DNA of 64,000 nt from assembly GCA_963924565.1 (NCBI GenBank), contig OZ004611.1:2604001-2668000 (forward strand). Reading direction: 5' to 3'. The notes beneath the pieces were generated by a model. The model worked only from the letters and a program-made list of their open reading frames with translations, was not told where the DNA came from and did not search any database. Below, one piece after another: positions 66 to 61,300 of the stretch. This stretch comes from Ascidiella aspersa (taxonomy: Eukaryota). The translations under genes were made by a program, and so were the position numbers. Position 1 is the first letter of the stretch. The number at the start of each line of letters is the position of its first letter.

Positions 66-1855
66 GTTAACATGTTGGTACAGCAGCAGACCAGTTGTTG
101 GTTTCTGTTCCGTCGCATGTCAAGGCTAATGTTCCGACTAAAACATATCCGGCGTTGCAGGTGAAGGTATGAGGTACGTTGTAAGCTGTAACTACAGTTG
201 TTCCGACTCCGTTGGTTATTGAGGTTGCCGCACAGGTTATAGCTGAAAATACATAATATATGTCTCAATTGTTTTTATAATAATATATCTCCATTGTGCG
301 CGAGAATATCAATTTCTTATTACCCATCTGTTGCTAAGCACGTGGGACGAAAAAGTGAACGTATGCCGGATTAGAAATCAAAACAATATTTGAAATGCTT
401 AAAGTAATATTTACCTGTGCATGTCAAGGAGTTTTGATTCCAGGTGTCTGTCGTGGTACAAAGCGAAGATGAAGGGTCACAATCAGCCACCTTATACCCG
501 TCGTTGCAGATGATTGGCACTGTGCCGGTGTAGCCGCCAGAAGGCACAGTTGTCCGGTGAGGGTCGCCGGTGCAGCGGCGCATGTGGCGGCTGTTTCAAA
601 CATCAAAATAGAAGATAGATGAGAGTGTGTGTTGTGATGCACGAGTTTTCCTTGACGGCTGACACTGTTTACGAGTGTTGCCGACAGTAACAAGTAACAA
701 CACGGCTGCAATTGATTGGTGAAACAGTGGTCTGCTTTTCATAATTCGAAACCCGCTTTAACAAACACAACTTTTTTATCGGCTGGTTTTGATTAAAACA
801 AATGTTTAGTGCTACGAGTGGACTTCCCTTTTTGCAATGTGATTAAACAAAATTCGATAACATTGAAATTCATTTAGAAAACTTTGATTTGAATAGCTGT
901 GGGTTGTAGTTTGGGTTTAAATTCTAGGTTTTGCAAATGTGGCAATTCCCATTTTAATATGATGAAGAAGCTAGAAAATTAATTAAAATTCAAAATGTAA
1001 AAGTTTAAGCCTCGTATTTGAGGTGCGTGAAAAAAACTGTGAGGCAATTTGGACCAATCAACTGCCAACAAAAGCTTTAAAACTGATTTTTTGGGTCTTT
1101 GTTTCCATTCTATTAAGGTCGCTTAAACTGTTCTTTTGTTTCTACGCTTTTGTTTCTTCAGACCAACCTGAGTTTTTTGAAAAATTTGTATTTTGTTGTA
1201 ATTTACGCACCGTTCGTATTATTTAGGAATACAGCGAATTGATTTCAGGTGCTCTCACAAACGCTAATTTTTGTTTTTTTTACCACTGTTAGTCGCAGGT
1301 AAGGTGCCCAGTCGTTAAAATTTTTACTGTGCTATTTACGACCAAGAAGTACTTTGCGCGATTTAAATAAAAGGCTTAATAAGGAAAGTTGGGCTGCGGA
1401 ATCGAAGATAAACTCGGGACTAGATACTCGAGTGAGCCAAACGTTTACCAAACTATTTCAACGCAAATAGGTTATCACTGTGGCTCATGTTTTTCAATAT
1501 TTACCTGTGCACGTCACTGAGGCTGGGTCCAGAGTGGTTCCGGAGCACGACAATGAGGTAGCAGACGCATCAAACCCGGCTGTGCATGAGAAAGTTGTTG
1601 TCGAACCGTCTGCAAGCGGAGTAGCTACGCCATACGTTCCTTCGGTCACAGCCACAAGATCACATTGAGCTGCAAACAAATCGGCAAAATATCAAATTAA
1701 TACATGATATCAGAGCAGGGTTATGACTTCTGTAGCTTTACACAAACATAGATCACTTTCGGTTAAGTTCCAGACTGAAACTGTTTTGAATGAGCCTCAC
1801 CTTGAGCGCGGTTGGCCACTGCGAGCAGACAAAATGCGAACAACTGGAAGTTCAT
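66..1855 (-). pseudogene. Gene A: CCP/Sushi-family paralogue, disrupted or truncated (signal peptide, Q-type CCP, frameshifted A-type CCP, T-type CCP ending in a stop)
   Basis: Coding exons 1855-1801 (MNFQLFAFCLLAVANRAQ), 1669-1505 (165 nt, QCDLVAVT...VTCT), 590-415 (176 nt, 10 nt short of the 186-nt paralogues, so frameshifted) and 242-66 (ITCAATSI...VPTC, then TAA at 69-67). All have GT/AG boundaries. Any further exons would lie beyond the window edge. Confidence 0.8.
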
Positions 1856-2117
1856 TTTGATTGGAAAATGGCGTTAGCTCTGTAATTGTTAAAAATGAAG
1901 TTTAAATTCTAATAAGAATAACCAATAAAATTAATTGTAATAAATAAAATGCATTTCCAACGAGCTTACCTTTTCGAAATCAAACAGATGTTTCTGGCTG
2001 AAAGTTCTTCAAAACTGAAGTTACAGGACTGGAGAATCGACTTATAAGATCGGTGAACAAAAAAAAACCGTTCGATTTCAACAGAAACAACTTTACTTAA
2101 AGAGTAACACGGTGAAG

Positions 2118-2124
2118 TTATATA
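2118..2124 (-). promoter_or_regulatory. Putative TATA box of gene A (type-I promoter); non-coding exon 1 ends at 1970
   Basis: TATATAA on the minus strand at the same position as TATAAAA in genes B (15814-15820) and D (34685-34691). A conserved donor AAAG|GTAAGC lies at 1970, 15667 and 34537. Confidence 0.5.
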
Positions 2125-3310
2125 AGCAGAAGACTGAATGCACGTCGTGATTGGGATATCAAATTGCGAGCTACGCTGTTCAATTTGGTTTGATGATGTT
2201 GCAACATTTCTTCAAGCTAGTATATTGTTCCTCAAGCAACGGCGACTATATACACTTTACACATTACCAGCCTTTTGTATTTGCAAAACAAAAAACGAAC
2301 TCCGGCAGTAACTTCCCTTCTCAAGTGACGCCAGGCAGACTTGGAATTGTGCTTTTTCGATAAGTCTTCTTTAGTTTTCAGAAAACAAAACAAAATTGTT
2401 TGAAATGCATTGCGAGTAAACAAGTATATAAGGTGGAATAAAAATCAAAACACACAATAATTGATAAAGGGTAAATGTTTGGATTTTAAGACTGCCTTTT
2501 CAGAAATGTTTATTTTGGTATTTGTTGAATGGCCGCAATAAAAGGCAACAGTCTATAATAAAAAGTGCAAAACTATGGATATTTAAGCAAATCAATGAAT
2601 AGTAGCATTTATATATGTATGTCTTAGATAAAAATTAAGTTCTCAAATTGAGAAGAAATATAGAGAGGACACACAATAAGACCGACAAAACTACAATTTT
2701 TAAAGGTTTCAAATAATATTAATATTTTAACGTTATTTGTTTTTTTATCGTTTTTAATTGTTTTAAATCTCTCTTAAAAATAAGGCCAGTTATACTATAA
2801 CTTAGAAATAAAATAAAAATTTAGGTATATATAGTAAAAGTTGATAAAAATTATAGTTTAAGGGGCATGCAGAGAAACTGTTTTTGAAAATCAAGCTATT
2901 TTTTAAAGCTTTACAAGCATCACAAACAGTAAATCCAGCAATATGTCCACTATTTAGTCTCTTTTAAATGGTTGCGGAATGCGTATAAAAGTGTAGAAGG
3001 ATACTGAATGCAGTATAGACGCCGCAGCAAAACTGGAAGGTTGGTCGGCTATAGTAGAAAACATAAATATTTGTAAATGGCCGTTTATGTTTAATTCTAA
3101 ATAAGATAATCAAGTGGCATTATGGTGTCCTTATGTAGTGGGGAAAACCTGAGCCACTTTTTCATCTTACAACTGTAACTTTTGCGTTTGTAGACCGTTA
3201 TGGCCAATACTAATTGGACAAATGATGCCCAACAGCTTTAGGTTTAATGGGTTGAAGTTTTAAATGGTTACATTGAAACCCTTTCAACTAAGAACTTGAA
3301 TTGTCTGGGT

Positions 3311-6010: not shown

Positions 6011-6024
6011 TTAAAAAGCACTGG

Positions 6025-9226: not shown

Positions 9227-12200
9227 CTAAAGAGCCTTGATGAAAGCGAACGCGGAGAGAAGCATCGCCATCAGTGCAGTGTGCAGGTGGAACAAGCTAG
9301 CGCTGTCACCTGGAAATAAGTTGATAGAAATTGGTTGGAAAATGTCACATCACACAAAGTTCTCAGCGAATGCAAATAACATGCCCTTCAAAAATATGGC
9401 TGGTAAGGCGCGATTTGTTAACATAAAAAAGCGTTACCAGAATAACCTCCACTTTTACCCACAATCTCCCCACTGTATTTATAAATTTACATCACAATTT
9501 CCCTGTTTGTGAGAGCCCTTGTGACGGTTGTTCAGCAACATACATAGGGGAAACTAAACGTTTTCTCGTTAAAATTATTAACCCTGATAAGGTCAGCTGG
9601 TATCTGCTGCCAAAAGGTCTGGTTGTACTTTTTCTATCTATTGATATGTTGCCTGGTGGAATTAATTCTATTTTAGCTAGAATTCTATATTTCAAGTTAC
9701 CTGTGGTGGAAACGGTTGTGGTTGCAGTGCAAGTGGGGGTGGTCGCATTATAGTTATTGGCCAGAGTTCCGTCGCATTTGAGGTCTCCAGTAGTGGACGA
9801 GAGTGTGTAGCCGCTGTTGCAAGTCACAGTGACCTCTCCGTTATAAGCGACAGTGCAGGTTGGAGCCACTGCGCCGTTGGTCACAGTCAATGCCGAGCAG
9901 GTAATTGCTGGATAAACAAAGAAACAAACAATACAAAAGTTAAAAAGGTAAACGTAAGTCTAAAATAATTCTAGTTTTCCTACAATTTTACCTAACAAAC
10001 CATTGGCAACGTAATACGATGTTTAAAGGGAAATCCATACATAACTTTTAGCGAAAATTAATTTGACACTAAATGGTTTACCAGTGCATGTCACTGCGGT
10101 CGGGTTCCAGGTGTTTGTGGCCGAGCAAATTGACGAGTTGGTAGATCCCGCCTTATACCCGCTGTTGCATGTGATTGCCACTGTGCCGGTGTAGCCAGTA
10201 GTGGGCATAGTTGGGAAAGTTCCTTGGGTGAGGGTCGGTGAAGCGTTACACGTGGCGGCTGTATTATATAGATGACTTTATAGAAAGGAAAAAACTTAAC
10301 TTAAGGAAACTATGTACAGACACGATTAACCTCTATAAATTTCGTTCATTTCGCCCTCAGTATGAAGTTGCAAAAGGAGGAAAATTTAAGCCAACAACCC
10401 CGAGGATGGAACATTTGTTTTCAACAAATGCTTGTTTCTGTTTAAGACAGTAGAGGTTCTTGCTTTGATTTCCATCCTTATAGTATAGTTACTGATATTA
10501 TTTCGTTTTTATACAAACTAATGAACTTGAACTTTTGACTAACCAGTCGTTACAGTAAACAGTCTCACAAAAATCTTACTCTAAAAATGCAGTATGGTCT
10601 TCATACAGTTTACTTTTTTAGCTTGGTTTATTCAATTTATCCAACAAATAAGTTTCTCTAATTATTTATTTCTGCATATTTTGCATATTTAAATTAGCGG
10701 AACCGTTCTAATCACTTTTGAACAGTTACTTTTCCCACCAACCGGTGCAAGTGAGTGAGGTCGGGTTCCAGGTGTTAGTTGTATCGCACGATGCAGAGGT
10801 TGCTGCCCCAGATGCAGAAATGTACCCGGCGTTGCAGGTGATTGACACAGAGCCACTGTAACCACCACTGGGCATAGTTGGGAAGGTTCCTTGGATGAGG
10901 GTGGGCGCAGCGTTGCATGTGGCGGCTGTAATATATGGATGAATTTGTAGAAACGAAACTTAAGGAAACTATATAAGAACAGACAAGATTTATCTTTATA
11001 AAGTTCGTTTCATTTAACCCTCAGTATTAAGTTGCAAAAGGGCGGAAAGTCACGCTAAATCTCCCTGAGGATTAAACATCACTTGTTCTCAACAAATGCT
11101 TATTTCGGTGCAAATTTAAGGCAGTAGAGCTTCTTGTTTTGATTTTTGTCCTTAAATTTTAGTTACTGATACTATGGCGATTTTATACAAACTGATGAAC
11201 AAGAACTTTTCACTAACCAGTCGTTACAGTAAACAGTATCTTTCTTACTTGCAAACATGCTGAATAGTCTTAAAACAGTTTGCTTTTTCAGCATAGTTTA
11301 TTCAATTTATCTAACAAATAAGTTACTCTAATCGTTTATTTATGTTTAATTTGTGTAGTTTAATTAGCGGAACCGTTCAAATCACTTTTCAACAGTTACT
11401 TTTCATACAAACCGGTGCATGTGAGTGAGGTCGGGGTCCAGGTGTTGGTTGCACTGCATGATGCAGAGGTTGCTGCCCCAGATGCAGAAGTGTACCCGGC
11501 GTTGCAGGTGATTGACACTGAGCCACTGTAACCACCACTGGGAATAGTTGGAAAAGCGCCTTGGGTGAGGGTCGGTGCAGCGTTGCATGCGGCTGTTTGA
11601 AACATTTGACATTTTTTGCAAATGAAAAAAACAACAACTCAATTTTGCTTGTTTTGCTTTACCTAATCCAGTAGTTTCCTTTTTATTATCATTGGATTTC
11701 GCTGGATTGTTGTACGAATCAGAGTATTAATGTTAAATTGTCGTATGTTTTAAGACAATCTAAGATTTCCTACCAACACAAGTAAGTGATGCTGGATTCC
11801 AGGTGTCTGTATCGGTACAAAGCGAAGATGAAGCTGCACCAGAAGCCAGAGTATACCCAGTGTCGCATATGATTGGCACTGTACCGGTGTAGCCGTCTTC
11901 AGGGACAGCTGGAAAAGTTCCATAGGTGAGGGTCGCCGGTTCAGCGGCGCAAGTGGCGACTGTTTGAAATAGAAAATAGATTGAACACACATATGCTAAT
12001 CAAAGTTACTTAATAATTTGCCAGAGTTTGTAAACTCCCCTTCTGCCAGCGGTGATCTTTCTACTGACTAAATATATTACACTTAACAAAAAACAAAAAC
12101 AATAATATTTAACGGTCAAGATCGTGTTACAAATGTACGAAACTTTTATAAAAATGAACGATGTACATAAATGCGCGTGTTTCCAAAATTAAAATTCTTT

Positions 12201-15200
12201 CAAAGTCGAACTTACACACGCATTCTGTGGACTCACTACCATTTTGCAAGTTACGTTTTTTAATATAAAGGAATATAGAATTTAATCCGATTAGAAAGTC
12301 TTAACGCTTGTTCCATCTAATAGAAAAAAAAATAACAGACCAAACCTCAGCATTTTTTCTACGGTTCTTAATATATGTTTTACCGCCTTAAAAGATAGTG
12401 GCCACGTGCAAAACGTAAAACTATACATTTGTAATTGACGGACTAATGCAAATCCAGCAAACTCTGCTTTGAGTTTCTCTTGCAGTTTAACGTAGGACGA
12501 ACTCGCATATAAACCTTGGGTCTGATTCAATGCAGTAAAAGTTTTACGGTTGCGCGTGTTTACGACTAAATTTACAAACGTTTACAAACTCACTTGGCGT
12601 AAATAAACTAATGCTAAAAAACGTCGAAGAACAGTTGGTATTCAAGTCAACAATTATGAACATTTTACCATCGCATGTCAGTGTTGCGACAAAGGTGGTG
12701 CCGCTTGAAGCACATACAGTCGATGCAGCTGACGCAGCGTAACCCGCGTCGCAAACGAGGTTGAGTGTAGCACCGTTATTAATATTTGTACCAGCGGCCG
12801 GTGAGGTAGTCCCGTTTGCGATGGTGGGAGAAATGCACTGAGCTGTAAATAGGTAAAGTCATTACTGAACGATTGTAAAGAATATAATTGTACCATACTG
12901 AAATACAGGGAATTAAAATGGTTGATGTACCTAATGTTTTAGCCTATTTCGATTAAATCATTTAAGTCCAAAAGCATGGTGCGTCCCATCGCATCATCGA
13001 AAATGTTAAACAATTTTTTGAAGGCATTTTTCGCTTTGCGTTAATCGATTGGATATGTTGTTTTATCTCCTCGATTGCTAGCAAGTTTTTATTTCATAGG
13101 CCCTCTAATTTTATTATCTATAAAAGTGTGCTCTATAAGATTACTCAAAAGATAAATAAATAAAAAAACTATAGGCCTTTCATATGGAAAATTATGAAAA
13201 CACACAGTATGTTAGTTAGAGCTGGATGGAAACGCACAATAAGACCCACAAAGCAACAAAATTTAAATCAGAATAATCTATACAACCTAAATAAAGCAGG
13301 GATTCCCAAACTGTGTGCCGCAGGACTTTCGTCCGCAAAATACAACACAATAAAAGGATAAAAGGGCAATGATGCTCCCCTACCCCGGGAGGTGTCTAAT
13401 TTGCACCACAAAAGCCCCGAAGGTCATGCCCCCCCCCCCAAAAAAAATGTATCAAAATTTTACTCTTAATAATTTGTTTTTTAGCATTTATTGGCAGTAC
13501 AGAACATTCGATCACAGATATACTAAACCTTTAATTGTCATTCACTGTTACGTCACAAACGATTTAGTTAATATAACGTTTGGTATACAATAATGTAGTT
13601 TTACTACTTTTAGACAGTTTTTGCTCTAGGACTGTGTTTTGAGTATTGCGTTAACACTCAGTCAGTTGCTGCTCAAAACGGTTTGCTAGCATTGTTACTT
13701 GTGTTCGTTACGGCATTTAAAACAATGACAAAAGCTAAATAAAAAAGTTAAAACTTTTTGCCCCCCCCAAAAAAAATGCTCGGCTAGCTACGCCACTGCG
13801 CGGCACACTACCGTGCCTCCAAATATTTTCATGTGTGCCGCGAAACTTTCATTTTGGAAATTAAGTTATTTGTGTTACCAATAGGCATACACCCAAGTAT
13901 TTTAGACTTAAATACGCACTATTCATTACAAATTAATATATTGGGATATTACAAATAGTTTGTCATATGTTAAGGGCGATTGTAAAATTACTCTACTGTT
14001 GTTCTTTTAACAGTGTGCCGCAAACTATTTAACAATTTAGAATTTTTTAGTGTGACGCGAGCTAAAAAAGTTTGGGAACCACTGTAATAAAGTAAAATGT
14101 GCAGTAATAACCAGGACAGAATAAGATCTAGAATCGTCTGAATGCGAACTAAATCTGTCGAAATAAGTCCTAATTTAACAAAATAAGACAGCAATGAACA
14201 ACAAACGTCCCAAAACTGTAGAGCAGGAAATAGGGCGGTTGCGGCACACCTTTTTGCCATCGGCCGTTTTGGTGTCGACGTTTGGGCGCTGTAATTTAAG
14301 AGGCGCCATTGGGGCGCCGCTGTTTTGGCACCAGATTGTTTGCCGCAATTTGTGAGTAGGCGCGGGTATAGAATTAGAATTTGACTTAGGGTTGAAATTA
14401 CAAAGGGGAGTTAAGGGTGAACTTAGGGGTGGGGTTTTTTGGGAAGTAAAAGGGCTGTAAAGGCCTTATTCTTTCCATTTAGGTCTCATTTCGACGAATT
14501 TAAGTTTAATTTCGATTTAAACGTTGTTACGACTATTAGGTATTAGTCCTATTTAGGTGTTCTATGCCGAAAGTCTAGTCCTTTTTGGTGTTTTACCTAA
14601 CTGTAATTTATGACGTAGTTGATGTTGTTCTGATTTAGGTCCAATTATGGCGGGAGTCCCGCTAAATATGTTGGCTATTTGTCTTGCTTCGTTAGCAAAG
14701 AGACTACATCATCCTTAGAGTTTATTTTGAAAGGGCTACAAATGCAGTCATATTGTCCAATGTCTAGTGTTTATTGATAGAAATCGCGACTTAAGTTTCT
14801 TTCCAGCAGTGTTTTTTTTTTTATTAAAAAATAAAAATCTAAATGAAACTTTCTTTGGCGAATTCTTATTTTTTAAGAAAAGCGTTAATTTTATCTGTGA
14901 ATGAAAAAACTTTTTTATTTTTATTCTGCATTTGACAACTTTAAACTATGAAGTGTTCGAATATATATTTAAATATTTCAATTTTGAATTCCAAAATTTA
15001 CCTTTAAAATGTTCCTAAGGTTACATCATACCGTATTAATAAGACCAACGGCAGGATTAAATCCAAAACATTTTTGGTATAAGACCTAAGTGGCTTAAAT
15101 GCCTTAAATAATATCCAGATCCGCAGGAAATGAATGTGGAACGATTACTGCCGCCGCCGTGACATCGTGTCGACGTGTAGGCTCCATGTTTTAAATGGCG

Positions 15201-15555
15201 GCGTTTGGGGACTCTTTTTTTATTTTTTTTTTATTTGTTTATTTTGTGTTGAAGCTAAGTGGGCTTTGTGATTAAAAGTCTTATTTTGGCTGTTTAGTTC
15301 TTATTCCGACATTTAGCTAGTAGTCCTGTTTTGAACTGAGTTTTATTCCAACCTGGACGTTATTCGTATTTTAATCTTATGGCTAGAATCCACTTTCAGT
15401 CGCTAATTTTAAAAATAATACAGAATTTGTTTAATATTTTTTATTTCCCTGCGGCGCACCTTTAAAATCGCTTCTGTAAAGTATTATTAACAAGACTCAC
15501 CTTGAACGCGGTACGCGAATGCGAGCAGACAAAATGCCAACAACTGGAAGTTCAT
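9227..15555 (-). CDS. Gene B: predicted GPI-anchored protein with 6 Sushi/CCP-like domains (about 414 aa), intact
   Basis: join(15555-15501 signal peptide; 12842-12669 P-type; 11959-11774 A-type; 11592-11413 S-type; 10925-10743 hybrid; 10258-10082 M-type; 9907-9701 J-type plus Thr stalk; 9309-9227 GPI signal and TAG). All introns are phase-1 GT-AG; 1245 nt open. Each exon has 4 Cys in a C..C-x-x-G[YF]..C..[W]..C pattern. Confidence 0.88.
13297..14084. mobile_element. hAT/Charlie-like MITE with a nested insertion (about 13325-13798), in an intron of gene B
   Basis: TIR CAGGGATTCCCAAAC...GTTTGGGAACCACTG; TSD AAATAAAG/TAATAAAG. An uninterrupted relative lies at 44704-45005. Confidence 0.75.
14110..15400. 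mobile_element. Non-coding foldback-like repeat, related to about 4716-5090 and 39227-40431
   Basis: Shares GGCGCC-rich blocks and AATAAG(T/G)CCTAAAT-like subrepeats with the other copies. Confidence 0.5.
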
Positions 15556-15813
15556 TCTTCTGCTTGAAAAATGGCGTTAGCTCTGTAGTTGTTAAGAACA
15601 ATGTTTAAATTATAATATCCAATAAAAAAAAATGTAATAATTAAAATGCATTTCCAACGAGCTTACCTTTTCGAAATCAAACAGATGTTTCTGGCTGAAG
15701 GTTCTTCAAAAGTGAAGTTACAGCACTGGAGAATCCATTTATAAGATTGGGGAACAAAAAAAAACGTTCGATTTCAACGGAAACGACTTTGCTTAAAGCG
15801 AGACACGGTGAAG

Positions 15814-15820
15814 TTTTATA
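15814..15820 (-). promoter_or_regulatory. Putative TATA box of gene B (type-I promoter)
   Basis: TATAAAA on the minus strand about 150 nt above the conserved UTR-exon donor at 15667. Confidence 0.5.
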
Positions 15821-20581: not shown

Positions 20582-21261
20582 CTGTAATATATGGATAACT
20601 TTGTAAAAAAATAAACTTAAAAAAAACTCAGTACCACCAAGATTCATCTCTATAAGTTCGTTTCATTTTACCCTTAGTATTGGGTTACAAAAGGCGGAAA
20701 GTCCAGGCTAAACACCCTGAGGATTAAACATCACTTGTTTTCAAAAAATGCCTATTTCGGTGCAAATTTATGGCAGATGAGGTTCTTGTTTTGATTTTTA
20801 TCCTTAAAGTTTAATTACTGATTTATGGCGATTTGATACAAACCCACCAAAATGATGCCCAATAGTTTTAGGATTAATGTGTTGACGTTTTAAATGGTTT
20901 ACATTGAAAGCCTTTAACTGAGAACCTGATAAGTTCTGGTCTTTGAAATGGCCCAAGAGACCGTCACAGTCGGGTCGGTTGAACCACGAAGGGACCCTTG
21001 AGACACGTTATTTTGACGCTAATTTTTCTTGAAAAACAAAGTCAAACAGCACATTGCTTTAAAATCGTATATTTAACAAACGAAAAACAGCATTTTAAAT
21101 ACCAGTATTTTCATTTGAAAGCAGCATCGGTATTACGACTTCAGATATAGACACATAAGAATTATCCTCAATTGAGGACTCAACAAATCCGTTTTTATTA
21201 TCCTTACTTTAGATAAAAATTTGTGATATCGGTGCACATTTGTCGTTAACAAATGAACCTA

Positions 21262-34684: not shown

Positions 34685-34691
34685 TTTTATA
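34685..34691 (-). promoter_or_regulatory. Putative TATA box of gene D (type-I promoter)
   Basis: TATAAAA in a block homologous to the A and B promoters. Confidence 0.5.
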
Positions 34692-48630: not shown

Positions 48631-49630
48631 CAGATGCTTAAATGATGTATACAGCCTTTAATCTTGTTTTAAAACTTTGATATGGTATAACATTAATGTA
48701 ATTTTAATGCAACTGTTAGTTTTTACGTTTCTGTTTAAAATGTAAAAAAAAACATTCATTTAAAGCCGGATTACGTATGGATATCTATTAATTCATACGG
48801 CGTCTTTGGACTAAATTCCTCCACAAATGTTTACTCCAAAAACACATTACAGAAAGGTTAGCACGACGCGCCAATGTTTTGGCATATCTACGGAGAATAA
48901 ATTGTCAATTTGGGGTACCCATCTCTCTAGAGCAGGCCCGCTAAAAAGTAAATCATTAGCAAACACATTGCTATTTAATAATCACATAACTTTGATCAAG
49001 ATTTTTGATAGTTATATCAACGAGAAAAAGCCACGGGTAATTATGTCTATTACATTTAGACCATCGTGATTTAGACTACAAGTTGCCGCCCCCAATCGCC
49101 CTAATTTTGCCCGGATTTTTTAATGTGCCTCCCTTTTAAAAAGGAGTCGCTCACTTTGAAAATCACTGACCTGAGATGTAAAGGTCTCTTTTTTCGTGTC
49201 GTTCTTTTCTATATTTTTCCTCCTTGCTTTGTATCGCTATATTGTCAATTAAAGTTTTTAAAACAAAAAGATATACAAAGTTAGAAGCCACTTTTTTAAG
49301 GTGGAAAATGGACGTGAAACCAATAGAACCGGCCTATGATATTTAGCGCTGTGTTATTGAAAGCCGTGCACGTCAAACGGCTTAAGCTCTCATGATGCAG
49401 TTTGCAACATCCGTAGCGTTAGCAACCTCGAGCTGAAATGTTGCAAGGTGTGGATTACAAGCTTACTTGTAGTCGCCACAGATTTCTCGTCTTTGTGTTT
49501 TGTCATTTCGCTCGTAATGCGACACTTCGATGTGTTAAGAACAAAAGTAGCTGCCGGTGTCCATGGAAACCTTTTCTATAAAACATTTTCCTTTCTTCTT
49601 AAAGTGCTCCATTCCTTCCAATTGATTTGT

Positions 49631-49638
49631 TATATAAA
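49631..49638 (+). promoter_or_regulatory. Putative TATA box of gene E (type-II promoter)
   Basis: TATATAAA in a block (about 49410-50520) homologous to the region upstream of gene F (about 57460-58330). Confidence 0.45.
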
Positions 49639-50563
49639 GTGCTTTCAGCAACAGACCGTTCCATTTGGAAAACGTCTCTGGTGATAATCTCGACAGTGTG
49701 AGCACACTAAATCAGCAGGAATAAATTATTTTATTCAGCATATTGTAATATTTTGAAGAGGTTTTTATACCGGTCTTATATTTTTGTTTGCTAACGCGAG
49801 TTATGTTTAGATTTTTGTGCTATATTAAATATGGTAAACGACGAATGAGATTAAAATAATTATAGTTTTAAGATTTGCCCTGTTTTTTTTTTTTTTTTTT
49901 TTTTTTTTGTTACCGCTTTTATTTTAAACCTGGCGACTTTAGGCACTTAATGCGGTCAAAGATTTACAACAATTTTTTTTTCAGTTGCAAACAATTTTTT
50001 TTCAGGTGCAATTTCTAATGTGCAGCGGGTAATTGAAATATTAATAATATGGGCCTAAAGAATTTAATATTTAAAAGACAAAGTAACGATTTATGATAAT
50101 AAAGGTCTTCTCGACAAATTCCACTGTTCAATATTTTTTAGATTCCTTTACAGATCCGCTTAAAGAAATGTTTTTTTAATTCCCTATAACTATAAAGCTA
50201 TAGCTTGCCACAGGCCAATTTGGACAACGCTGTTTGCAGTATACAGACCCGCTTAAAGAAATGTTGAATTTTCAATTTTCAACATTTCTTAATTAAGCTC
50301 TACCTTTTGACAGGCCTAATATGTAAATGCGTCATTTTATCAGCAGCATGATGTGTAACTTTTTCCACATAGTTCTTCTACTTGAAAAAAAAGATGAAAA
50401 TTATGGCATTTACGTTTCGCTGGCTTAAAACTGCAGCAGTTTGATAATAAATTTTTCTTCTTTTTTGCAAATTCAGTTTGCATTGCAGTTTGATAATATT
50501 TAATTGTTTGTTTATCTTGCAGGAGATTTAATTATCGTCAGGTTCAATCATCTATCGATAAAA

Positions 50564-53500
50564 ATGAACTTCCAGTTGTTCGCATTTTGTCTGCTCGCAG
50601 TGGCCTACCGCGCTGAAGGTAAGTGGTATTCAAAAAAATCTACTCTTATCACAATTGTTGCGGTCAATTAAAATATCACATACTTTGTTTAAATTTAGGT
50701 TGAAACTCAACCAAAAGCGACAAATGATGGTGTAAAGCAGGGGTTCTTAAATTGGGGTCCATTGACCCCTTGGGGATACGTGAATTAACTTTAGGGGGTC
50801 CATGAAGGCCATATGTAAATAATAGTGTATCTTAAAAAAACAATTAATTTTTAAAGAAAATAGTTTAATCAAAAATAAAAAAATTAGCATTGAATACATT
50901 TAGACTCCATTTTACTTAAATCTAGCATATTTCTTAAAGTCTATTTGTATTGTGATATAAATTTATGAAAAAATAAGCATATCTCTGAAATCTATTTGAT
51001 TGTGACGTCATTTTTGAAAATGTCTTGCCTTCCGTGGTCCAAGCGACGCCAAAAATATATTTTAGTTGTCCGCGGTAAAAAAGTTTAATAATCCCTTGTG
51101 TAAAGCGAAGTCGTAGTCCTGCTTTGATATAATATATCAAATTGACATTTTGCGGATTTGTCTGCAGCTCAATGTACTCTTGCGGCTGTGACCCAAGGAA
51201 CGTATGCCGAATCTTCTCCCCTGGCATCCGGTTCGTCAACAGCTTTCTCGTGCGCAGCTGGTTTTGTTGCATCTGCTACGTCGTTGTCGTGCTCTGGAAG
51301 CACCCTGGACCCAACCTCAGTGACTTGCACAGGTAAATATTGAAAAACATAAACGACAGTAATAAACTATTTCCATTGAGATATATTTGTGATGGAAAAC
51401 GTCTGGCCCACTCAACCATCATTCCCCGAACCTGTCTTCGACTCCGACACTGCTTTAAGGCTTTGATTTAAATCGTGCGAAATCCTCTCTTAGTCGCAAA
51501 TAGCACAGTGAACATTTTAATGACGGGCGCCTTACCTGCGCGACTAACAGTGGCAAAAAAACAAAAACTAGCGTGTGACTTGCGGGAGCACCTGAAATCA
51601 GTTCATTTTATTCTTAAATAACATGAATGGTTCCATTTTTTATTCTTAAAAACGATGTGAAATTACAAGTTAGTAAATTTTCGGGTTTATTATAATAGAA
51701 TGGATATTGATGCATTCATGAAAACTAGAATTTCAGCCAAATCTAAAAGCGCAGCTTATGTCTTTCTAATAAATTTCGATGTTATCGAATTTCGTTTAAT
51801 TACATCGCAAAAAAGGAAGTCCGTCCGTATAGCTGAAAATTTGTTTTAATTAAACCAGCCGATAAAAAATTGTGTTTATTAAAGGGGGCTTTGAATTATA
51901 AAAAGCAGGCCATTGTTTCACCAATTAGGATCAATTGCAGTCGTGCTAGTTTTTACTGTCGGCAACACTCGTAAACAGTGTTAGCCGTCAAGGAAAACTC
52001 GTGCATCACAACACACACTCTCATCTATCTTCTATTTTTTTTTTCTTTAAAACAGCCGCCACATGCTCCGCTGCTCCGGCGACAAGTTTTTAACTAAAGG
52101 TGCAGTACGATAGCAATGTTGCAATGTTTTTTATCCTTTGTTTGAAGAACATAGTTTAAGCTCACACATTCCGTAATACCAAAATGATGAAGAAATAAAT
52201 AATTTAAGCTCCTAAAAACTTCGAAAAGTGGGTCTTCTTGTTGAAAAGATTTCAGAACAACCAAAGGTCGTTCCATTACGGAGCAAACCAGTGTTCATCA
52301 TAATTGAACGATATCTCCCCGTTGCCTGGCTGCCACGTTGTTGGGTTTGCATCAAGTTAAAACAAAACCCTTCCGCTGCATTTGAAGGTATAAATCTTGC
52401 CTACAACGCAGTTGTTTCTGTCAAACACCATTTTGATGAATTCTTGTCTAATTTGCGCACTTTTTTGCCTGTACGTAGATCCACTAAGCTAATTTGCGCA
52501 GTTTTTTGGTCGTATGTAGGTCCAATAAAACAAATTTGGGCACTTTTCGTCCATAAGTAGGTCCAATAAAACTAATTTGGTCCCTTTATTTCTCCTACGT
52601 AGCTCCAAAAAAAACTAATGTGGGCACTTTTTTGTCCAGACGTAGCTAAAAAAATCTAATTGTGGAACTTTTTTCGAAACTTTGTTAAAGTAAAAATGGG
52701 GTACTTAAGGTATTTTTTTACGAATTGTTATAATCAAAATGTAGCAAAATGTTAAACATTACGTAGTGCTTAACATTCGGTAAATAAAATAACATATTAT
52801 GTGTTTTTCTGCATTTCGCGGTGTTTGGAGTACAGTTATCCTATTGTAGCACAGAAATGGCATCCCTAGACTGTTTGCCGCTAAATGTGTCTGGAATACA
52901 AACGACTGGTGTGGCATAAAGGATTAAAGCCTGTAGCCTGAATGGCCCTCGATTGTCGTTAGCCTGTCGTCCCCAATCGGTCTTGTGCTCGCTCGATCGG
53001 GTTTCAAATGTAACTGATTGGGCAGAGATTAGCGCGACAATCCCGGGCGCTTTTGCCTGATGCCGTGACCTCTCGGTAAAAGGTCAAGATTTTCTGAGCA
53101 CCGCATGCCATTTGTTGCTTTCGTTAGGGCGTTACCTTTTACACGGTCATATCTTTGTTGTTGTTTTTTAAGTGTGAGTAAATTACTTTACTATACCAAA
53201 GAAAACTGACATCAAACAACAAGTAAGCATTATACAAGCATAGCATCATAACTTCATTCTTTGGAAACCGTGCGAATGGATTTAGCTGTTTTGGCAAGCG
53301 CAATGTTTTGCAGAATCAGCTAAACCTGTGCCAAAATTTTAGGTGTTTTGAATGGTGCCTTGCTGCTGCAATGATACTGTTTGTATGTTGGCACATAGGA
53401 GTAATCCAGCGGAATCCACACCGCGTATATTCCAGGCTTATAATGAGGTGATTCTCCTTAAAATTGCAGTGGTATACGAATACCGCAAGGCACCTCTCTA

Positions 53501-56500
53501 GATTAATGCAGTTAAACAACAAATAAGGGTCGGGGATACTCAGTGACGTCACAAAGCTAAGTATAAACGTGCCACGTTTTTGGTTTGTAAAATATCGGCT
53601 ATCGCTATCGACATAAAAAGACACGGACATCCCTAGTTCTAAAGTTTAAACTGAAAACTTTTAGGCCAAATATTTCAGTTTTTATATGCGTTGGGCTAAA
53701 CTCAAGTGCAATCTTTTAGTTTGGAACACTATATACGGATCTGTTCATAAGTTTAATGGTGAAAATAACGGCCTAAATAGACGTTAAAAGCGACACGCTT
53801 TATTTTCAAACGTTTCGGCAAATGCTCATGCCATCATCAGTAATATGAAGGCCACATCAGTTACACCCGTTTATATACACTTTAGTCGCACAAAGGAATG
53901 ATTCCATTTTCCGTAAAAGCGTATACGCTGATACCTGAGCTGAAATGCGACGGTAAAATGTTTTCATAATTTTTGACTTAAATACCAACTGTTCTTCGCC
54001 GTTTTTTAACATTAGTTCATTTACGCTAAGTGAGTTTCCAAATGATTGTAAATTTAGTTGTACACACGCGAATCTTTACTGCATTGGATCAGACGCAAGG
54101 TTTATATGCGCGTTAGGACGACCCAAGGTCTATATGTGAGTTGGTCCTACGAGAGAAACGATAAGCAGAATTTGCTGGCCTTTGCAATAGTCCGTCAATT
54201 ACAAATGAATAGTTTTACTTTTTGCAGGTCGCGACTATCTTTTAAACGGTAAAAAACATCTTAAGAACCGTATAAAAAATGCTGAGGTTTGGTCTGTTAT
54301 TTTTTTTCCTATTATATGGAACAAGCGTTAAGACTTTCTATCGGATTAAATTCTATATTCATTTATATTAAAAAACGTAACTTGCAAAATGGTAGTGAGT
54401 ACATAGAATGCGTGTGTAAGTTCGACTTTAAAATAATTATAATTTTGGAAACACGCGCATTTATGTACATCGTTCATTTTCGTAAAAGTTTCGTACATTT
54501 GTAACACGAACTTCACCGTTTAACATTCTTGTTTTTTATTTTGTTCAGTGTAAATATATTTCGTTGGTAAAAAGATCACCGCTAGCATAAGTGAAGTTAC
54601 AAAAACAAACACTGGCAAACTACTTGGTAACTTTTATTAGCTTATGTGTATTCAATCTTTGTTAATGTTTCTTTCAGCCGCCCTATGCAACGCTGAACCG
54701 GCGACCCTCACCCAAGGAACTTTCCCAACTGTGCCCACTGCTGGCTATACCGGCACAGTGGCAATCACGTGCAACGATGGGTATACTGTGGCTTCTGGCG
54801 CCGCTTCATCTTCGCTTTGTACTACGACAAACACCTGGGATCCTGAAACACTGGCATGCGTTTGTATGACATTTTCATTTTCCTTACACACAACGATTTA
54901 ACATTAAATTCCCTAATTCGTGCAACAATGCAGTGAAATACTACCATAATGAAAAGGGTACTACTGGATTAGGTAAAAAGCAAAACAAGAAAAATAAAGT
55001 CTTGTTTACATTTGTGAAATATGTTTAATCTTTCAAACAGTCGCATGTAACGCTGCACCGACCCTCACCCAAGGAACCTTCCCAACTATGCCCACTGGTG
55101 GTTACAGTGGCTCAGTGTCAATCACCTGCAACGCCGGGTACATTACTTCAACTGACTCTGCATCATGCAGTGGAACCAACACCTGGAACCCGGACACATT
55201 GACATGCACTGGTTAGTAGGAAAAGTGATTGCTTAAAAGGGGTTTGAACGGTTCCGTTAATTCAAATATACAATTTATGCAGAACACTATAGAGTACTCT
55301 ATTTTTTCGATAAATTGAATTAATTATGCTGAAAAAGCAAACTGTTTTAGGAGTATGTAGCATGTTTGCGATTAAGAAAGATACTGTTTACTGTAACGAC
55401 TGGTTAGTGAAAAGTTCTTGTTTATCAGTTTGTATAAAATCGCCATAATATCAGTAAACTAAACTGTAAGGATAGAAATCAAAACAAGAACCTCCACTGT
55501 CATAAATTGCCTCGAAATAAGCATTTCTTGAAAACAAGGATGTTTATTCATCGGGGGTTTTAGCTTGAACTTTCCTCCTTTTGCAACTTAATACTGAACT
55601 TTGGATAAATCTTTGCCTAAGTTTCTTTAAGTTTCATTTCCACAAATTCATCCTTATATTACAGCCGCCCTATGCAACGCTGCACCGACCCTCACCCAAG
55701 GAACTTTCCCAACTATGCCCACTGCTGGCTACACCGGCACAGTGGCAATCACATGCAACAGCGGGTATAAGGCAGGATCTACCAACTCTTCACTTTGCTC
55801 GGGCACAGACACCTGGGACCCGACCTCAGTGACATGCGCTGGTAAACCATTTAGCTTTAATTTTGACAAGGAATTACTTGGCGTTGCTAAATCTAATATA
55901 GACGAATAACAATTTTAGTTTTTTTAATCGCTTTTGGAACTATGATCTATTCATTTTTAAATTAATGATTATAAAATCGGATTACGCTTCCAATTGATTG
56001 TTGGTGGAAATAAAACAAAATTTAAAATATTATTGTATAAAATTATTATTATTTACACTCATAGTTATGATTAAACATGTATCATTGATACAAAAGTGCC
56101 TGCGTTAACTAAATTGCAGATAATTTTTTTCCCTTTTATCTATTTTTATATTTTTTCATTGTTTAACCAGCAATTACCTGCTCGGCATTGACTGTGACCA
56201 ACGGCGCGGTGGCTCCAACCGGCACTGTCGCTTATAACGGAGTGGTCACCGTCTCCTGCAACAGCGGCTACACACTGTCGTCCACTACTGGAGACCTTAA
56301 ATGCGACGGAACTCTGTCCAACAACTACAACGCGACCACCCCAACTTGCACTGCAACCACCACAGTTTCCACCACAGGTAACTTCAAATATAGAATTCCA
56401 ACCAGGCAACATATCAATAGATAGAAAAAGTACAACCAGACCTTTCGGCAGCAGATGCCAGCTGACCTTATCAGGGTTAATAATTAAAACGAGAGAACGC

Positions 56501-56841
56501 TTAGTTTCCCCTATGTATGTTGCTGAACAACCGTCACAAGGGCTCTCATGAACAGGGAAACTGTGATGTAAATTTATAAATACAGTGGGGAGATTGTGGG
56601 TATAAGTTGAGGTTATTCTGGTAACGCTTTTTTCTGTTAACAAATCACGTCTTACCCGCCATATTCTAAGCAAATTTTATGGGGCATGTTCTTTGTGTTC
56701 ACTGAGAACTTTGTGTGATGTGATATTGCTAACCTATTTCTATCGACTTATTTCGCAGCTGGTAGCGCTAGCTTGTTCCACCTGCACACTGCACTGATGG
56801 CGATGCTTCTCTCCGCGTTCGCTTTCATCAAGGCTCTTTAG
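50564..56841 (+). CDS. Gene E: predicted GPI-anchored protein with 5 Sushi/CCP-like domains (about 347 aa)
   Basis: join(50564-50618 signal; 51168-51332 Q-type; 54678-54863 A-type; 55041-55211 S-type; 55665-55841 M-type; 56171-56377 J-type plus stalk; 56759-56841 GPI and TAG). 1044 nt open, all introns phase-1 GT-AG. Assumes the exon stub at 52056-52083 is skipped. Confidence 0.87.
50738..51097. mobile_element. hAT-type MITE in a gene E intron
   Basis: CAGGGGTTCTTAAA terminus; 8-bp TSD GTGTAAAG (50730-50737 and 51098-51105). Confidence 0.75.
52445..52675. repeat. Degenerate tandem repeat, unit about 40 bp
   Basis: Recurrent TAATTTG(C/G)GCACTTTTT...CGTAG(G)TCCAATAAAAC, about 6 units. Confidence 0.6.
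52900..54645. repeat. Intronic block duplicated at about 61885-63625 (partial third copy at about 59830-60418)
   Basis: Colinear high similarity between gene E and gene F introns. Confidence 0.85.
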
Positions 56842-57654
56842 ACTGACATCGTGTGTTGTAGAAACGTAGATTGTTTTATTATTAAGTTAAATTTTTGCCT
56901 TTGTAAAACGGCGTTAGCTGAATTCTTCTTCGTGAATCAAAAACTGATCATTGCAAAATGAAAGGTTTTTGAAAGAAAAGTCGAATTTACGCATAAATGC
57001 TACTTTTCATTGGTTTGCTTAAATATATATAGTGTTGCACTTATTATTTTCAGCCTGTGTGTTTTATTGCGGCCATTCAAGAAAAATCCAAAACCACTTC
57101 TGATAAAATCAGTCTAAACCTTTACCGTTTGTCATTTATCGTGTGCTCTATACCTATATCCAATTCAGTGTGCTTGTTTGAAAATACACCACAAAGCATT
57201 TGAAACGAGTTTGTTTTTGTTTTCTTAAAACATGTTAAGTAAATCGGAAAAATGCAATTTTCAGTCTGACGGGCGTAATTCAGGACGGGAAGTGACTGCC
57301 GGAGTTTCAATTTCATCTTAACCGATTTTTTTGCGAGCATTACCAGCATATGTAGCGCCACAGCCGTAAAGAAAGAATGCAAAAGACAGGCGTGAAAATG
57401 ATGAAACACTATTGGGTGTGACAGTTTAACATCCCCGATAGCCTTATAGTGACGGACATTAGCAGCGTTAGCAACCTCTAGTTAAAATGTTGCCAGGTGT
57501 GGATTACAAGCCCGCCCCGCCGCCACCGCTTTCTCGGCTGTGGTTTGGCATTTTACCTGTAACGCGACACTTGCGCGCTTCAAACAAAAGCAGCTACCGG
57601 CGTCCATGGAAACGTGTTTTCAAACTTTTTCTCTATTTCTTTTATTCGGTCGGC

Positions 57655-57662
57655 TATATAAA
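57655..57662 (+). promoter_or_regulatory. Putative TATA box of gene F (type-II promoter)
   Basis: TATATAAA at the position homologous to 49631. Confidence 0.45.
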
Positions 57663-58368
57663 ATGATTTCAGCAAACGATTATTTCATTAAAAAAACTTC
57701 GTTGCTGCTTGTAGAACAATCTTAAAAGTTTGGGCACATTAAAACAGCTGCGAATAAATGATTTTATTCAGCATTTTGTAATATCTGATATGAGGTTGTT
57801 ATACCGATCTTATATATTTGTTGGCTTGCTAAGTTATGTTCAGATTTTTTACGAAAGATGGTCATTGACCATTGAGATTATAACAATAATAATCAAGATT
57901 GCCTTGGGTTTTATTTATTGCCGCTTTTGGTTTAACCCTGGCTATAGGCAATTCAAAATGCGGTCAAAGATTTGGATACCTTTGATAAAAAAATACTTAT
58001 TTTTGGTTGCAAATTTTAGTGTACAGCGGGTAATTAAACATTTATCAGTATAAAAAGACCAAGAAACGGTTTATTATCATAAAGGTTTTCTCGATATTAA
58101 CAAATCCCGCTGTTCCGTATTATTGATATAGTTTTACAGGTCCGATTAAAGAAATATTGCTTTTTTAAATATTCTTTAGAATCTTAACTAAGCTCTACTT
58201 TCTTACAGGCCAAGTTGGACAACGTTGCATGTAATGTGTAAATGCAAGATGAAAATTAGCGCATTTTACGTTTCGCTGGCTTGCAATTGCAACAGCTTGA
58301 TAGTATTCCCTTTTTGTTTATTTCGCAGGAGATTTCATTATCGACAGGTTAAGAATTGATCGATAAAA

Positions 58369-61300
58369 ATGAACTTCCAGTTGTTGGCATTTTGTCTGCT
58401 CGCAGTCGCCTACCGCGCTGAAGGTAAGACTTCAATCAATTTTCGTTCGTTTTAATTGTGAAACAGTAACAAAAGCAAAACCGTCTTCGAAATCATTCGG
58501 CCTTATCAGGATTGTTCTTAGTAATTTACGTTCAGCCTAACTGTATCGTTACTTGCTATATCTAGACTTAACCATAGAAAACAAATAGTTTTTCTATCTG
58601 ACGATGGAAAATCAAACAAGTGTTTGATCGCACCTTTCATACATGGCATAACAAATAATATTTGCAAACTTTCTGTTAATGGCTTTACTTATCCACAGCT
58701 CAGTGCACTTCTCCCACCATCACCAACGGGACTCCGAACCCGGACGCTGGTCAGACTGTTAATAACGGTGCTACACTCTCAGTGACTTGCGCCTCGGGGT
58801 TTAAGGCGTCCCCTTCATCAACCACATGTGCTGCAACCGGCGACACCTTCACCGACACACTGACATGCGAGAGTAAATCAAAGTTTTTACATAGTTTTCG
58901 ATCTAAATACCAAAGTTTCTTTGACGTTTTTTAACATTAGTTGATTTACGCCGATTAAGTTTGTAAATGATTGTAAATTTAGTCGTACACACGCGATACC
59001 TAAAAACGTTTACTGCATTGGATTAGGCCAAAGGTTTTTATGCTAGTTCGTCCTACGTTAAACTGCAAGAGAAACTAAACGTAGTGTTTGCTGGCAGTGG
59101 CATTAGTCCGTCAATTACAAATGTTTTACTTTTTGCGGTCTGCGACTATCTTTCAAAATGGTAAAAAATATATAAAGAACCGTACAAAAACTGCTGCGGT
59201 TAAGTCTGTTATTTTTCGTTATTAGATAGAAGAAGCATTAAGATTTTCTAATCGGACTAATATCCACTTTTCTTTATGCTAAGAAAAGCCATCACTGTAA
59301 ATTGAAATCCAAGCCTAGGGGTGGAAATTGTCGAGCTTTGGGGTGGTCCACTCGAACATGGAAAATCCCACCATGCCACCATGGGAATAAGCAACCCTAA
59401 GCATTGAATTCCTGGCATGGAATTTTCTATCATACATGCTTTCCATATTTAGCGATGGGTTTGTCTAACCTTCTTTTTTGATAGTAATACGCGTGGAATT
59501 TTCCATCCTACAAACTTTTCTACCTTCGTTAATCGGTTTCAGCCATCATCCTTGTTTGGTATTACCTCGCATATAATACCTAAAAAAGCAGCTTCAGAAG
59601 GGCTAGATCTCAGTTGCTAACACACATATGTGTGCATGTTTCATTGAACACATAATACCGCTGTGATATTTATTGAAAGAAAAAAAGTACGAAAAACTAA
59701 CAGCAATTTCAGGTGACAAATAGGTAGTTATTAGAGGTCAAAAAGTAAAAGATAAATGTAACATACGTTATAGAAATAAATCAAGACATGCATATAAATA
59801 CTTCCGAAAATTATGTATTTTACACCGCCATATCTTTGTTTGTTTTTTTAAATGTTAAGTAAATTACTTTACTCAGCCAAAGAAAACTGACATCAAACAA
59901 CAAGTAAGCATTATACAAGCATAGCATCATACCTTTGGTCTTTGGAAAACGTGCGAATGGATTTAGCTGTTTTGGCAAGCGCAATGTTTGCAGAATCAGC
60001 TAAACCTGTGCCAAAAGTATAGGTGTTTTAAATGGTGCCTTGCTGCTGCAATGATACTGTTTGTACGTTGGCACATAGGAGTAATCCAGCGGAATCCACA
60101 CCGCGTATATTCCAGGCTTATAATGAGGTGATTTTCTTTAAAAGTGCAGTGGTATACGAATACCGCAAGGCACCTCTCTAGATTAAGCCAGTTAAACAAC
60201 AAATAAGGGTCGGGGATACTTACTGACGTCACAAGGCTAACTATAAACGTGACCTCCATCGCCACGTTTTTTGTTTGTCAAATATCGGCTATCGCTACCG
60301 GCATAAAAAGTCAAGTAACGGACATCCCTAGTTCTAATGTTTAAACTGGAATTTTTTTTAGGCCAAATATTTCAGTTTTTATATGCGTTGGGCAAAACTC
60401 AAGTGCAATCTTTTAGTTTAATTAATATTTTCGTCGCACAATGGATATTACATGCATTTTCAGCTATAACCTGCGCGGCCACCTCAATAACCAACGGAGT
60501 CGGAACAACTGCAGTTACAGCTCACGGCGATTCATTTACATTTTCTTGCAGCACCGGATATATCCTATCTGGAACAGCGGCCTTGACATGCGACGGAACT
60601 GAAACCAACAACTGGTCGGCTGCTCTGCCCACATGCGCGGGTAAGTTGTTTTAATACAGTTAGAGAAAAATAATAGTAGGCAGTCGATCGTTTTTAGCAG
60701 ACAAGTTCGACTAACGATAACGACCAGTTGTTTGTTTTAAACATCATGGTATGACGATTTGAATTTGAAGTGATAAGTATAGCGATTATTTTTTGACTTG
60801 TCAAAAAAAGTCAAAATTTTGTCAAAATTTACATGTTAAGTTAAGATTTGTCAAAATTATTCCACGTTAAAAACGATTAAAAATGCACATAAATCGTTTA
60901 AAAATTAAAAAAAACTATACTAGGCTTTAGATAATTGCCGTTCAGTTAGAATTTTATCCAAAAATTTAGTTTTGAGTTTTATTCAAAGATATTTTAACTG
61001 TAGTAGATCTTCATTAGAGCAATACGGTGTACGCGCGCTTGCAGAATTAACCAACCTGGCCTAGTTTATCTCATTAAGCTCAGATCGAACTTCGTTTTTG
61101 CATTATATAGTTATTTTGATGTATTTGGACAAATGCATTAAACAGTAGGCCTATTGTTGTATTTTTCGCTTGTGATTTGCAATTATCCCATTTCCTATTT
61201 CGATAACTAGGTTTTTGTTAATTTTCTGCAATTATTTTTACGTTGTATTTTAGCTGTTTACACAACATTTTTTTATAAATAACCAGCGTCTTATTTCTTT

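What the first reader, a model, noticed from the sequence alone, without database searches (positions are those of the whole stretch)
1505..58872. All four promoter-type by first-domain combinations exist, across inverted genes
Minus-strand genes A, B and D use one promoter/5'UTR type; plus-strand E and F use a different one. The N-terminal CCP exon cuts across this split: Q-type in A, D and E, P-type in B and F. So (I,Q), (I,P), (II,Q) and (II,P) all occur, a four-gamete-like signature of recombination or conversion at or near the shared signal-peptide exon. Inference: the conserved signal exon acts as a crossover hub that re-pairs expression pattern and distal domain.
Basis: partly seen in the sequence, partly recalled or inferred. 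Interest (0 to 1): 0.7.

Follow-up and report, generated by a model that had tools for sequence, protein, structure and literature searches.

The report
Sushi-gene cluster swapping parts at exons
Duplicated genes for predicted cell-surface Sushi-domain proteins show all four pairings of two upstream regions with two first domains, likely because neighbouring copies exchange segments at any exon they share, the signal exon being only one such site; this is a familiar process in gene clusters.

Summary
In the window A and D are (I,Q), B is (I,P), E is (II,Q) and F is (II,P). The wider subfamily has 12 signal exons: 5 (I,Q), 1 (I,P), 3 (II,Q), 3 (II,P). Two genes switch ancestry at or beside the signal exon: B, and J outside the window (F-like upstream, E-like body). 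So the signal exon does serve as a crossover site.

It is not a special hub. A uniform nearest-paralog scan of 11 genes found 17 switches; 12 lie at exons (26% expected), but only 1 at a signal exon, against 4 at the last Sushi exon and 4 at R/S/T exons. The last Sushi exon shows all six pairings of its flanks. Inversion is not needed, because a type-II gene also lies on the minus strand. The tandem P+Q alternative is unlikely: the relic is 13 nt riding on an intron module copied nine times. Both in-window (I,Q) genes are frameshifted, and expression is untested.

Verdict: ordinary paralog recombination and exon shuffling in a seemingly undescribed family.

The parts
1856..2340 (-). Gene A type-I upstream block (TATA-like motif near 2120, predicted 5'UTR exon, 90-nt UTR intron, 24-nt UTR part of the signal exon)
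1801..1855 (-). Gene A signal-peptide coding exon
1505..1669 (-). Gene A first domain, Q-type Sushi-like exon
415..590 (-). Gene A second Sushi exon (R type), 176 nt, frameshifted; the next exon (about 66-242) ends in a stop codon, so A is probably a pseudogene
15556..16035 (-). Gene B type-I upstream block; A-like similarity (95-99%) continues to about 18870
15501..15555 (-). Gene B signal exon, closer to type-II genes m5 and F than to A; inferred crossover between about -20 and +35 of the ATG
12843..15500 (-). Gene B intron 1 (2.66 kb), mostly interspersed repeats; P-type only at its 3' end
12669..12842 (-). Gene B first domain, P-type Sushi exon (75% DNA identity to F's)
9227..11959 (-). 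Gene B body: R, S, S, T, U Sushi exons and terminal hydrophobic (GPI-signal-like) exon; all frames open
9701..9907 (-). U exon of B, flanks u14/d3 (one cell of the 2x3 grid)
19752..21264 (-). Gene C remnant: D-like far-upstream sequence joined to T (stop codon), U (20018-20230, flanks u14/d14) and terminal exons; no signal exon or first domain
34423..34902 (-). Gene D type-I upstream block
34368..34422 (-). Gene D signal exon
34074..34236 (-). Gene D Q exon, 163 nt, frameshifted
30490..33035 (-). Gene D body: R fragment, two I exons, T fragment (31640-31718), U exon (31348-31563, flanks u14/d9), terminal exon
49400..50563 (+). Gene E type-II upstream block
50564..50618 (+). Gene E signal exon
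51168..51332 (+). Gene E Q exon
52056..52083 (+). First 28 nt of an R exon, truncated; marks where E's Q head joins a P-type body (same fragment in J)
52896..54375 (+). Intronic module carrying the last 13 nt of a P exon (53940-53952) and the P intron; 9 copies in E, F, G and J share the 13-nt junction
54678..56841 (+). Gene E body: R, S, T, U (flanks u1/d3) and terminal exons; 81% collinear with B's body over 1.9 kb
57456..58368 (+). Gene F type-II upstream block (93-98% to gene J over -640..-250)
58369..58423 (+). Gene F signal exon
58699..58872 (+). Gene F P exon
61881..63355 (+). Second in-window copy of the relic module, inside P-headed gene F

Best explanation
This is a tandem family of multi-Sushi genes, predicted to encode GPI-anchored surface proteins, whose copies have likely exchanged segments by unequal crossing-over and gene conversion at whichever exon they share. 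Introns and flanks diverge or are replaced quickly, so the exons remain as islands of homology (inferred). P is probably the older first domain and type II the older upstream type; Q and type I arose later. One exchange in or just before the signal exon joined type-I upstream to an old P body (B), or passed it from a B-like gene to the Q genes; the direction is not resolved. A second exchange gave J an F-like upstream on an E-like Q head. Similar exchanges re-paired the flanks of the U, R/S/T, I, Q and terminal exons. All coding introns are phase 1, so the products stay in frame.
For: 12 of 17 nearest-paralog switches in 11 genes lie within 100 nt of an exon, where 26% of eligible windows lie (P=0.0002); 18 of 20, 14 of 18 and 22 of 28 under three other settings; the signal exon holds 1 in each setting. 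U exons show all 6 pairings of 2 upstream and 3 downstream flank classes: B, C and D share the upstream flank (83-95%), while their downstream flanks match E (98%), m3 (97%) and A (98%) and do not match each other. Clean triplet switches: m2 D-like then m3-like at the end of Q (z 9.1); m4 inside U (z 6.0); D at the terminal exon (z 12.5). J and B profiles. The outlying relatives K and L and the divergent H all start with P. B's signal-exon/intron junction is spanned by a contig of another sample with 6 other letters and 6 gaps, and raw DNA reads cover it without a gap in depth.
Against: The switch counts are not independent (shared ancestors and reciprocal products count more than once). Long near-identical F/J introns inflate the non-exon denominator. 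The scan misses B because its body has no partner at 80% or more; adding B makes the signal exon 2 of 18, a per-base excess like that of other exons. The first 10 signal codons show no synonymous change in 11 genes (rough P 0.022, window chosen afterwards), which could mean extra homogenisation there. Triplet tests were not corrected for multiple testing, and rate variation can mimic some of them. B's intron 1 is repeat-filled, so its breakpoint is inferred, not pinned.
Confidence: 0.76

Rival explanations
1. The signal exon is a privileged crossover hub that re-pairs promoter (expression pattern) and distal domain.
For: Two of 12 genes switch there (B, J). Homology between types I and II starts within 1-6 nt of the ATG. 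Over the first 30 nt, identity between types (97.8%) equals identity within types (96.9%, 98.0%). J and G have identical signal coding exons but unrelated introns behind them.
Against: 1 of 17-28 switches in four scan settings, P 0.32-0.46. No four-gamete quartet on immediate flanks, against three at U. Codons 11-18 vary (83-93% identity), and the terminal exon is more uniform (96.4% against 93.1%). E and J joined a Q head to a P-type body with a break inside an R exon, not at the signal exon.
Confidence: 0.13
2. Ancestral genes carried Q and P in tandem and lost one or the other independently.
For: In E and J a Q exon is followed about 2.1-2.6 kb later by the last 13 nt of a P exon and the P intron, and E's body beyond it is collinear with B's body after P (81%).
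Against: No P homology upstream of the 13 nt in any of 9 copies (P 0.26-0.97 against shuffles, 18 tests). All 9 share the junction, and 4 lie deep inside P-headed genes F and G. The genome searches gave 6 P and 8 Q exons, none in the same gene. P and Q are homologous (hhalign 97%, E 1e-10), both lack the Sushi Trp, both sit in slot 1, and they group together (87/76, weak). It would not explain J's 98% F-like upstream.
Confidence: 0.05
3. An inversion or cross-strand crossover with breakpoints in two signal exons swapped promoters between oppositely oriented genes.
For: D(-) and E(+) are head to head. J's Q exon (plus strand) carries an A-like tract (92, 92, 88% against 80, 78, 86% for E), so some exchange between now-inverted genes did occur.
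Against: That tract is in Q, not the signal exon. m5 is (II,Q) on the minus strand. D keeps the short intron-1 form shared with type-I genes A, m2 and m4, so the D/E strand switch did not swap heads. J's inferred parents F and E are both on the plus strand.
Confidence: 0.03
4. B, the only (I,P) gene, is an assembly chimera.
For: The A and B upstream regions are 95-99% alike over about 4 kb.
Against: The signal-exon/intron junction is inside contigs of two samples, one with other alleles. Raw DNA reads of a different study cover 15450-15605 at mean depth 3.6-8.9. B's proximal UTR differs from the other type-I genes (84-88% over -113..-25), which a recent mis-join would not give.
Confidence: 0.03

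Closest known systems
Human RCA cluster hybrids (CFH/CFHR1; PMC1626556, abstract and outline seen)
   Same: Tandem Sushi/CCP genes in which non-allelic homologous recombination and gene conversion make hybrid genes.
   Different: There the exchange runs in long low-copy repeats. Here flanks are often unalignable and switches sit at single exons. The proteins here are only distantly related to RCA proteins (best PDB hit CR2, E 6e-9), and no complement activity was tested.
CYP11B1/CYP11B2 chimera (PMC8750845, PMC3848474; search listing with abstract starts only)
   Same: Unequal crossing-over between tandem paralogs gives a chimeric gene; that it joins one gene's regulatory 5' end to the other's body is recalled.
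   Different: A rare disease allele between two very similar genes, with a shown effect. Here the joins are old or fixed, the upstream types are non-homologous, and no expression effect is shown.
Class 1-1 exon shuffling of CCP modules (recalled, no call)
   Same: One domain per exon, all flanked by phase-1 introns, so gains, losses and swaps keep the frame.
   Different: Usually pictured with breaks in introns. Here most mapped switches fall in or beside exons.
Families with a conserved signal peptide and a variable mature region, e.g. Mytilus CRP-I (PMC10138031, passages seen)
   Same: Signal region far more uniform than the first mature domain (93% against 80% among Q exons).
   Different: Those are short secreted peptides. 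The passages seen did not describe promoter/body re-pairing.

Membership tests
Sushi/CCP domain proteins (PF00084) | Profile match at Pfam's cut-off | tested here: met
   5 of 9 exons pass 20.7 bits (R, two T, F's P, I); B's P and U fall just below; both Q exons have no hit
Sushi/CCP domain proteins (PF00084) | Four Cys plus conserved Trp before the last Cys, in the P and Q first domains | tested here: not met
   Four Cys present (one P row cut short); no Trp at that place in 6 Q and 6 P rows. Q still aligns to P (97%) and to R/S/T (94%) by hhalign: atypical Sushi-like
GPI-anchored surface protein | Signal peptide, Thr-rich stalk, small-residue site and hydrophobic C-terminal tail | tested here: inconclusive
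   Pattern read from translations; no predictor was run and there is no experiment
RCA complement regulators | Binding or regulation of C3b/C4b; orthology to CFH, CR1, CD46 or CD55 | not testable with these tools
   Only weak domain-level hits; among the 150 best library hits identity is at most 44%
Paralog recombination/conversion mosaic cluster | Nearest paralog changes along a gene at defined points | tested here: met
   17 switches in 10 of 11 genes; triplet switches
Paralog recombination/conversion mosaic cluster | Four-gamete pattern across a shared segment | tested here: met
   Upstream type x first domain; 2x3 flank grid at U
Dedicated signal-exon crossover hub | Excess of breakpoints at the signal exon over other exons | tested here: not met
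   1 switch against 0.4-0.6 expected in four settings; U, R/S/T and I as high or higher; small numbers, B not counted
Dedicated signal-exon crossover hub | Type I and type II upstream regions drive different expression | not testable with these tools
   The one RNA run laid gave a single read on the B stretch; no information
Class 1-1 exon-shuffled module family | Each domain on one exon between phase-1 introns | tested here: met
   exceptions are the broken exons listed

The most novel reading that the evidence does not exclude
The family works as a combinatorial surface-protein system: head (upstream region plus signal exon), Sushi body and GPI tail are interchangeable cassettes that recombine at short exon islands, as short as the 55-nt signal exon, between otherwise unalignable flanks. 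New head/body joins would segregate among individuals and put different binding domains under different expression programmes, for example in immunity or self-recognition.
Probability: 0.12. Interest if true: 0.65.

Novelty: new member of a known kind. Interest (0 to 1): 0.3.

Why it matters
It is a clear natural case of paralogs exchanging flanks at single short exons, in a large family (119 matches to one domain in the genome) with no close relative found in the protein libraries searched. If the two upstream types drive different expression, B and J would be promoter-swap alleles that test regulatory shuffling. As it stands the mechanism is known from other clusters, and the special role claimed for the signal exon is not borne out.

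Tried and rejected
Expression: the run search listed no RNA holder. One raw RNA run, about 6 in 100 of it read, gave 1 partial read on the B stretch. Neither is evidence for or against expression.

Word-based homolog search with one exon: 100 candidates, none at E 0.001. Full HMMER search: 289 distant Sushi proteins, none close. Atlas: generic Sushi clusters only. The organism was therefore not established; the resemblance to an ascidian genome is recalled, not tested.

m3 (type I with an E/J-like intron 1) was considered as a third signal-exon recombinant and rejected: A, D, m2 and m4 share a deletion in that intron and m3 keeps the longer state. B's break was first placed in intron 1 and then moved, because its first 25 intron bases resemble m5 and K.

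In one search the type-I upstream block gave 0 of 30 triplets at P 0.001 (m2 left out for its insertion). The terminal-exon block could not reach P 0.001 with 500 permutations. H was left out of the switch scan and of several counts as truncated or divergent; C, x, K and L were left out of the switch scan. D's Q exon and other broken exons were left out of the protein tree. mis-cut G's terminal exon and gave m2's Q exon as 159 nt; read it lacks 5 nt. No GARD or RDP was available.

Literature searches for this family or for signal-exon hubs found nothing on it; the library lacks most subscription papers, and no supplements were read. Look-ups of earlier scan findings returned nothing.
Full report
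What is there. The window lies at G000:C5:2604001-2668000 in a 308.6-Mb animal-type genome of 75 contigs; the taxon was not established. It holds five signal-exon-bearing members and one remnant (C) of a family built from a 55-nt signal-peptide exon, several one-exon Sushi-like domains, a Thr-rich last domain (U) and a terminal exon with a hydrophobic tail read as a GPI signal (the anchor is inferred). Five of 9 exons tested pass the Pfam Sushi cut-off. One domain has 119 matches in the genome, mostly on C5 between 2.55 and 3.2 Mb. No close relative was found in protein libraries.

Observation. A and D are (I,Q), B (I,P), E (II,Q), F (II,P). Type I and type II upstream regions show no homology over 600 nt (6 pairs, z -1.3 to 0.5), whereas E-F gives z 21.9. 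Reading 100 kb to the left and 300 kb to the right gave 12 signal exons of this subfamily. In window coordinates of the ATG: m5 -45106 (II,Q, minus), m4 -31637, m3 -19520 and m2 -6837 (all I,Q), A, B, D, E, F, G 84598 (II,P), H 105802 (II,P), J 114906 (II,Q). The totals are 5, 1, 3 and 3. (I,P) rests on B alone. Of the five (I,Q) genes A, D and m2 are frameshifted. Two outlying relatives, K and L, start with P and have unrelated upstream regions, so P is probably the older first domain. Type II is shared with the divergent H and so is probably older than type I (inference).

Exchanges at the signal exon. B's upstream matches A at 86-100% per 50-nt window down to -50, but its signal exon is nearer m5 (96%) and F (94%) than A (88%); it shares codon 13 with m5 and H. 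Its intron 1 is 2.66 kb, largely interspersed repeats, P-type only at the 3' end. The join therefore lies close to the ATG, by inference. It is old: B's UTR intron is 84-88% like the other type-I genes and its P exon is 75% like F's. Whether type I moved from Q to P or from P to Q cannot be told. J is cleaner: 84-100% like F from -700 to -150, then E-like from about -100 through intron 1 while F falls to background. Its signal coding exon is identical to G's. Because P and Q split long before the type-I and the F/G/J upstream groups diversified, each group needs at least one exchange: two in all.

Is the signal exon special? Three tests say no. First, classing the 130 nt on each side of every exon by alignability gave no four-gamete quartet at the signal exon but three at U: 13 U exons fill all six cells of a 2x3 grid once J's interrupted flank and H are set aside. 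B, C and D share the upstream flank, yet their downstream flanks match E (98%), m3 (97%) and A (98%). Second, triplet tests show sharp switches at the end of Q (m2, J), inside U (m4), at the terminal exon (D) and about 310 nt upstream of the ATG (J, F) (uncorrected). Third, a uniform nearest-paralog scan of 11 genes found 17 switches: 4 at U, 4 at R/S/T, 1 each at I, Q, terminal and signal exons, 5 elsewhere. Exons as a class are enriched (12 of 17 against a 26% share, P=0.0002; the same in three other settings) but the signal exon alone is not (1 against 0.4, P=0.32). Codons 11-18 do vary, and the terminal exon is more uniform (96.4% against 93.1%).

The P relic. It is the last 13 nt of a P exon plus the P intron, carried on a module of about 1 kb that occurs nine times (E 1, F 3, G 1, J 4) with the same junction. 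There is no further P homology against shuffles (18 tests, P 0.26-0.97). Four copies lie inside genes that keep an intact P at the front. No gene has both P and Q among the 6 P and 8 Q exons found. P and Q are homologous, Trp-less, first-slot domains. E is best read as a Q head, broken 28 nt into an R exon (52056-52083), joined through this module to a B-like body (81% over 1.9 kb). That is a head swap whose break is not at the signal exon.

Inversion. Type II occurs on both strands (m5), and J's parents are both on the plus strand, so same-orientation unequal crossing-over is enough. D keeps the intron-1 deletion of the type-I Q genes, so the D/E strand switch did not exchange heads. One tract, J's A-like Q exon, does link now-inverted genes.

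Mechanism. Shown: mosaic ancestry with switches concentrated at exons; phase-1 symmetry; all four combinations. Inferred: non-allelic crossing-over and conversion use exons as the remaining homology; order of events. Untested: promoter function, expression differences, protein function.

Comparison. It works like hybrid-gene formation in the human RCA cluster (PMC1626556, abstract and outline) and like CYP11B1/CYP11B2 chimeras (PMC8750845, PMC3848474, listing only), on a class 1-1 exon-shuffled scaffold (recalled). Conserved signal regions with variable mature parts are known, for example in mussel CRP-I (PMC10138031, passages). It is not shown to be an RCA member; the PDB hits are weak and domain-level. 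Six literature searches found no description of this family.

Verdict. Observation confirmed; interpretation partly supported; new member of a known kind; interest 0.3.

Noticed in passing
window terminal exons 9227-9309, 19752-19834, 30490-30572, 56759-56841 and 8 more in the flanks: The GPI-signal-like exon is 94-100% identical across 12 genes, with only 2 of 14 four-fold sites variable, even in truncated copies; more uniform than the signal exon.
   Followed up: partly
window 4209-4473, 5089-5278, 17699-17963; also -39987, -17828, -15044, -13532, -4892: Orphan partial copies of the type-I upstream element, most ending at the same point in the UTR exon. One (gene x, about -15340 to -14760) is joined directly to the intron before a U exon; that join also appears as a loose end in another run's contig.
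   Followed up: partly
Q exons, e.g. window 51168-51332: Q is P-like in its middle (51% against 33% to R/S/T) but R/S/T-like after the third Cys (57% against 40%), so Q may itself be an old P x R/T chimera.
   Followed up: partly
window 63751-63936 and J at 122588-122773: F and J carry an identical R exon in a 98%-identical block of several kb; J is a mosaic of F-like upstream, E-like head, F-like middle and E/B-like tail.
   Followed up: partly
window 54678-54785; J exon at 131942-132120: The 5' half of E's R exon is 91% like its own T exon, and J has an exon with an R-type start and a T-type end: exchange between domains within genes.
   Followed up: no
window 6022-7325: G-rich tandem repeat, unit about 71 bp, about 18 copies at 96% identity, between B's 3' end and A's upstream region.
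   Followed up: no
window 37484-38798 (-): Two overlapping open frames that read like a non-LTR retrotransposon reverse transcriptase (recognised by eye), between head-to-head genes D and E.
   Followed up: no
window 23952-24315 and 25605-25968: 364-bp direct repeats, 100% identical, 1.65 kb apart, suggesting a recent insertion; a piece recurs at 268180 and 269843 in window coordinates.
   Followed up: no
L019-L022 and L027-L028 (window coordinates 141700-175900 and 222000-251600): More distant family members have long internal arrays of near-identical two-exon units, about 7 repeats of 3 kb in K and 5 repeats of 2 kb in another gene.
   Followed up: no
gene H, window coordinates 105802-108730: Most divergent subfamily member; its U exon runs into a repeat and no terminal exon was found, so it is probably truncated.
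   Followed up: partly
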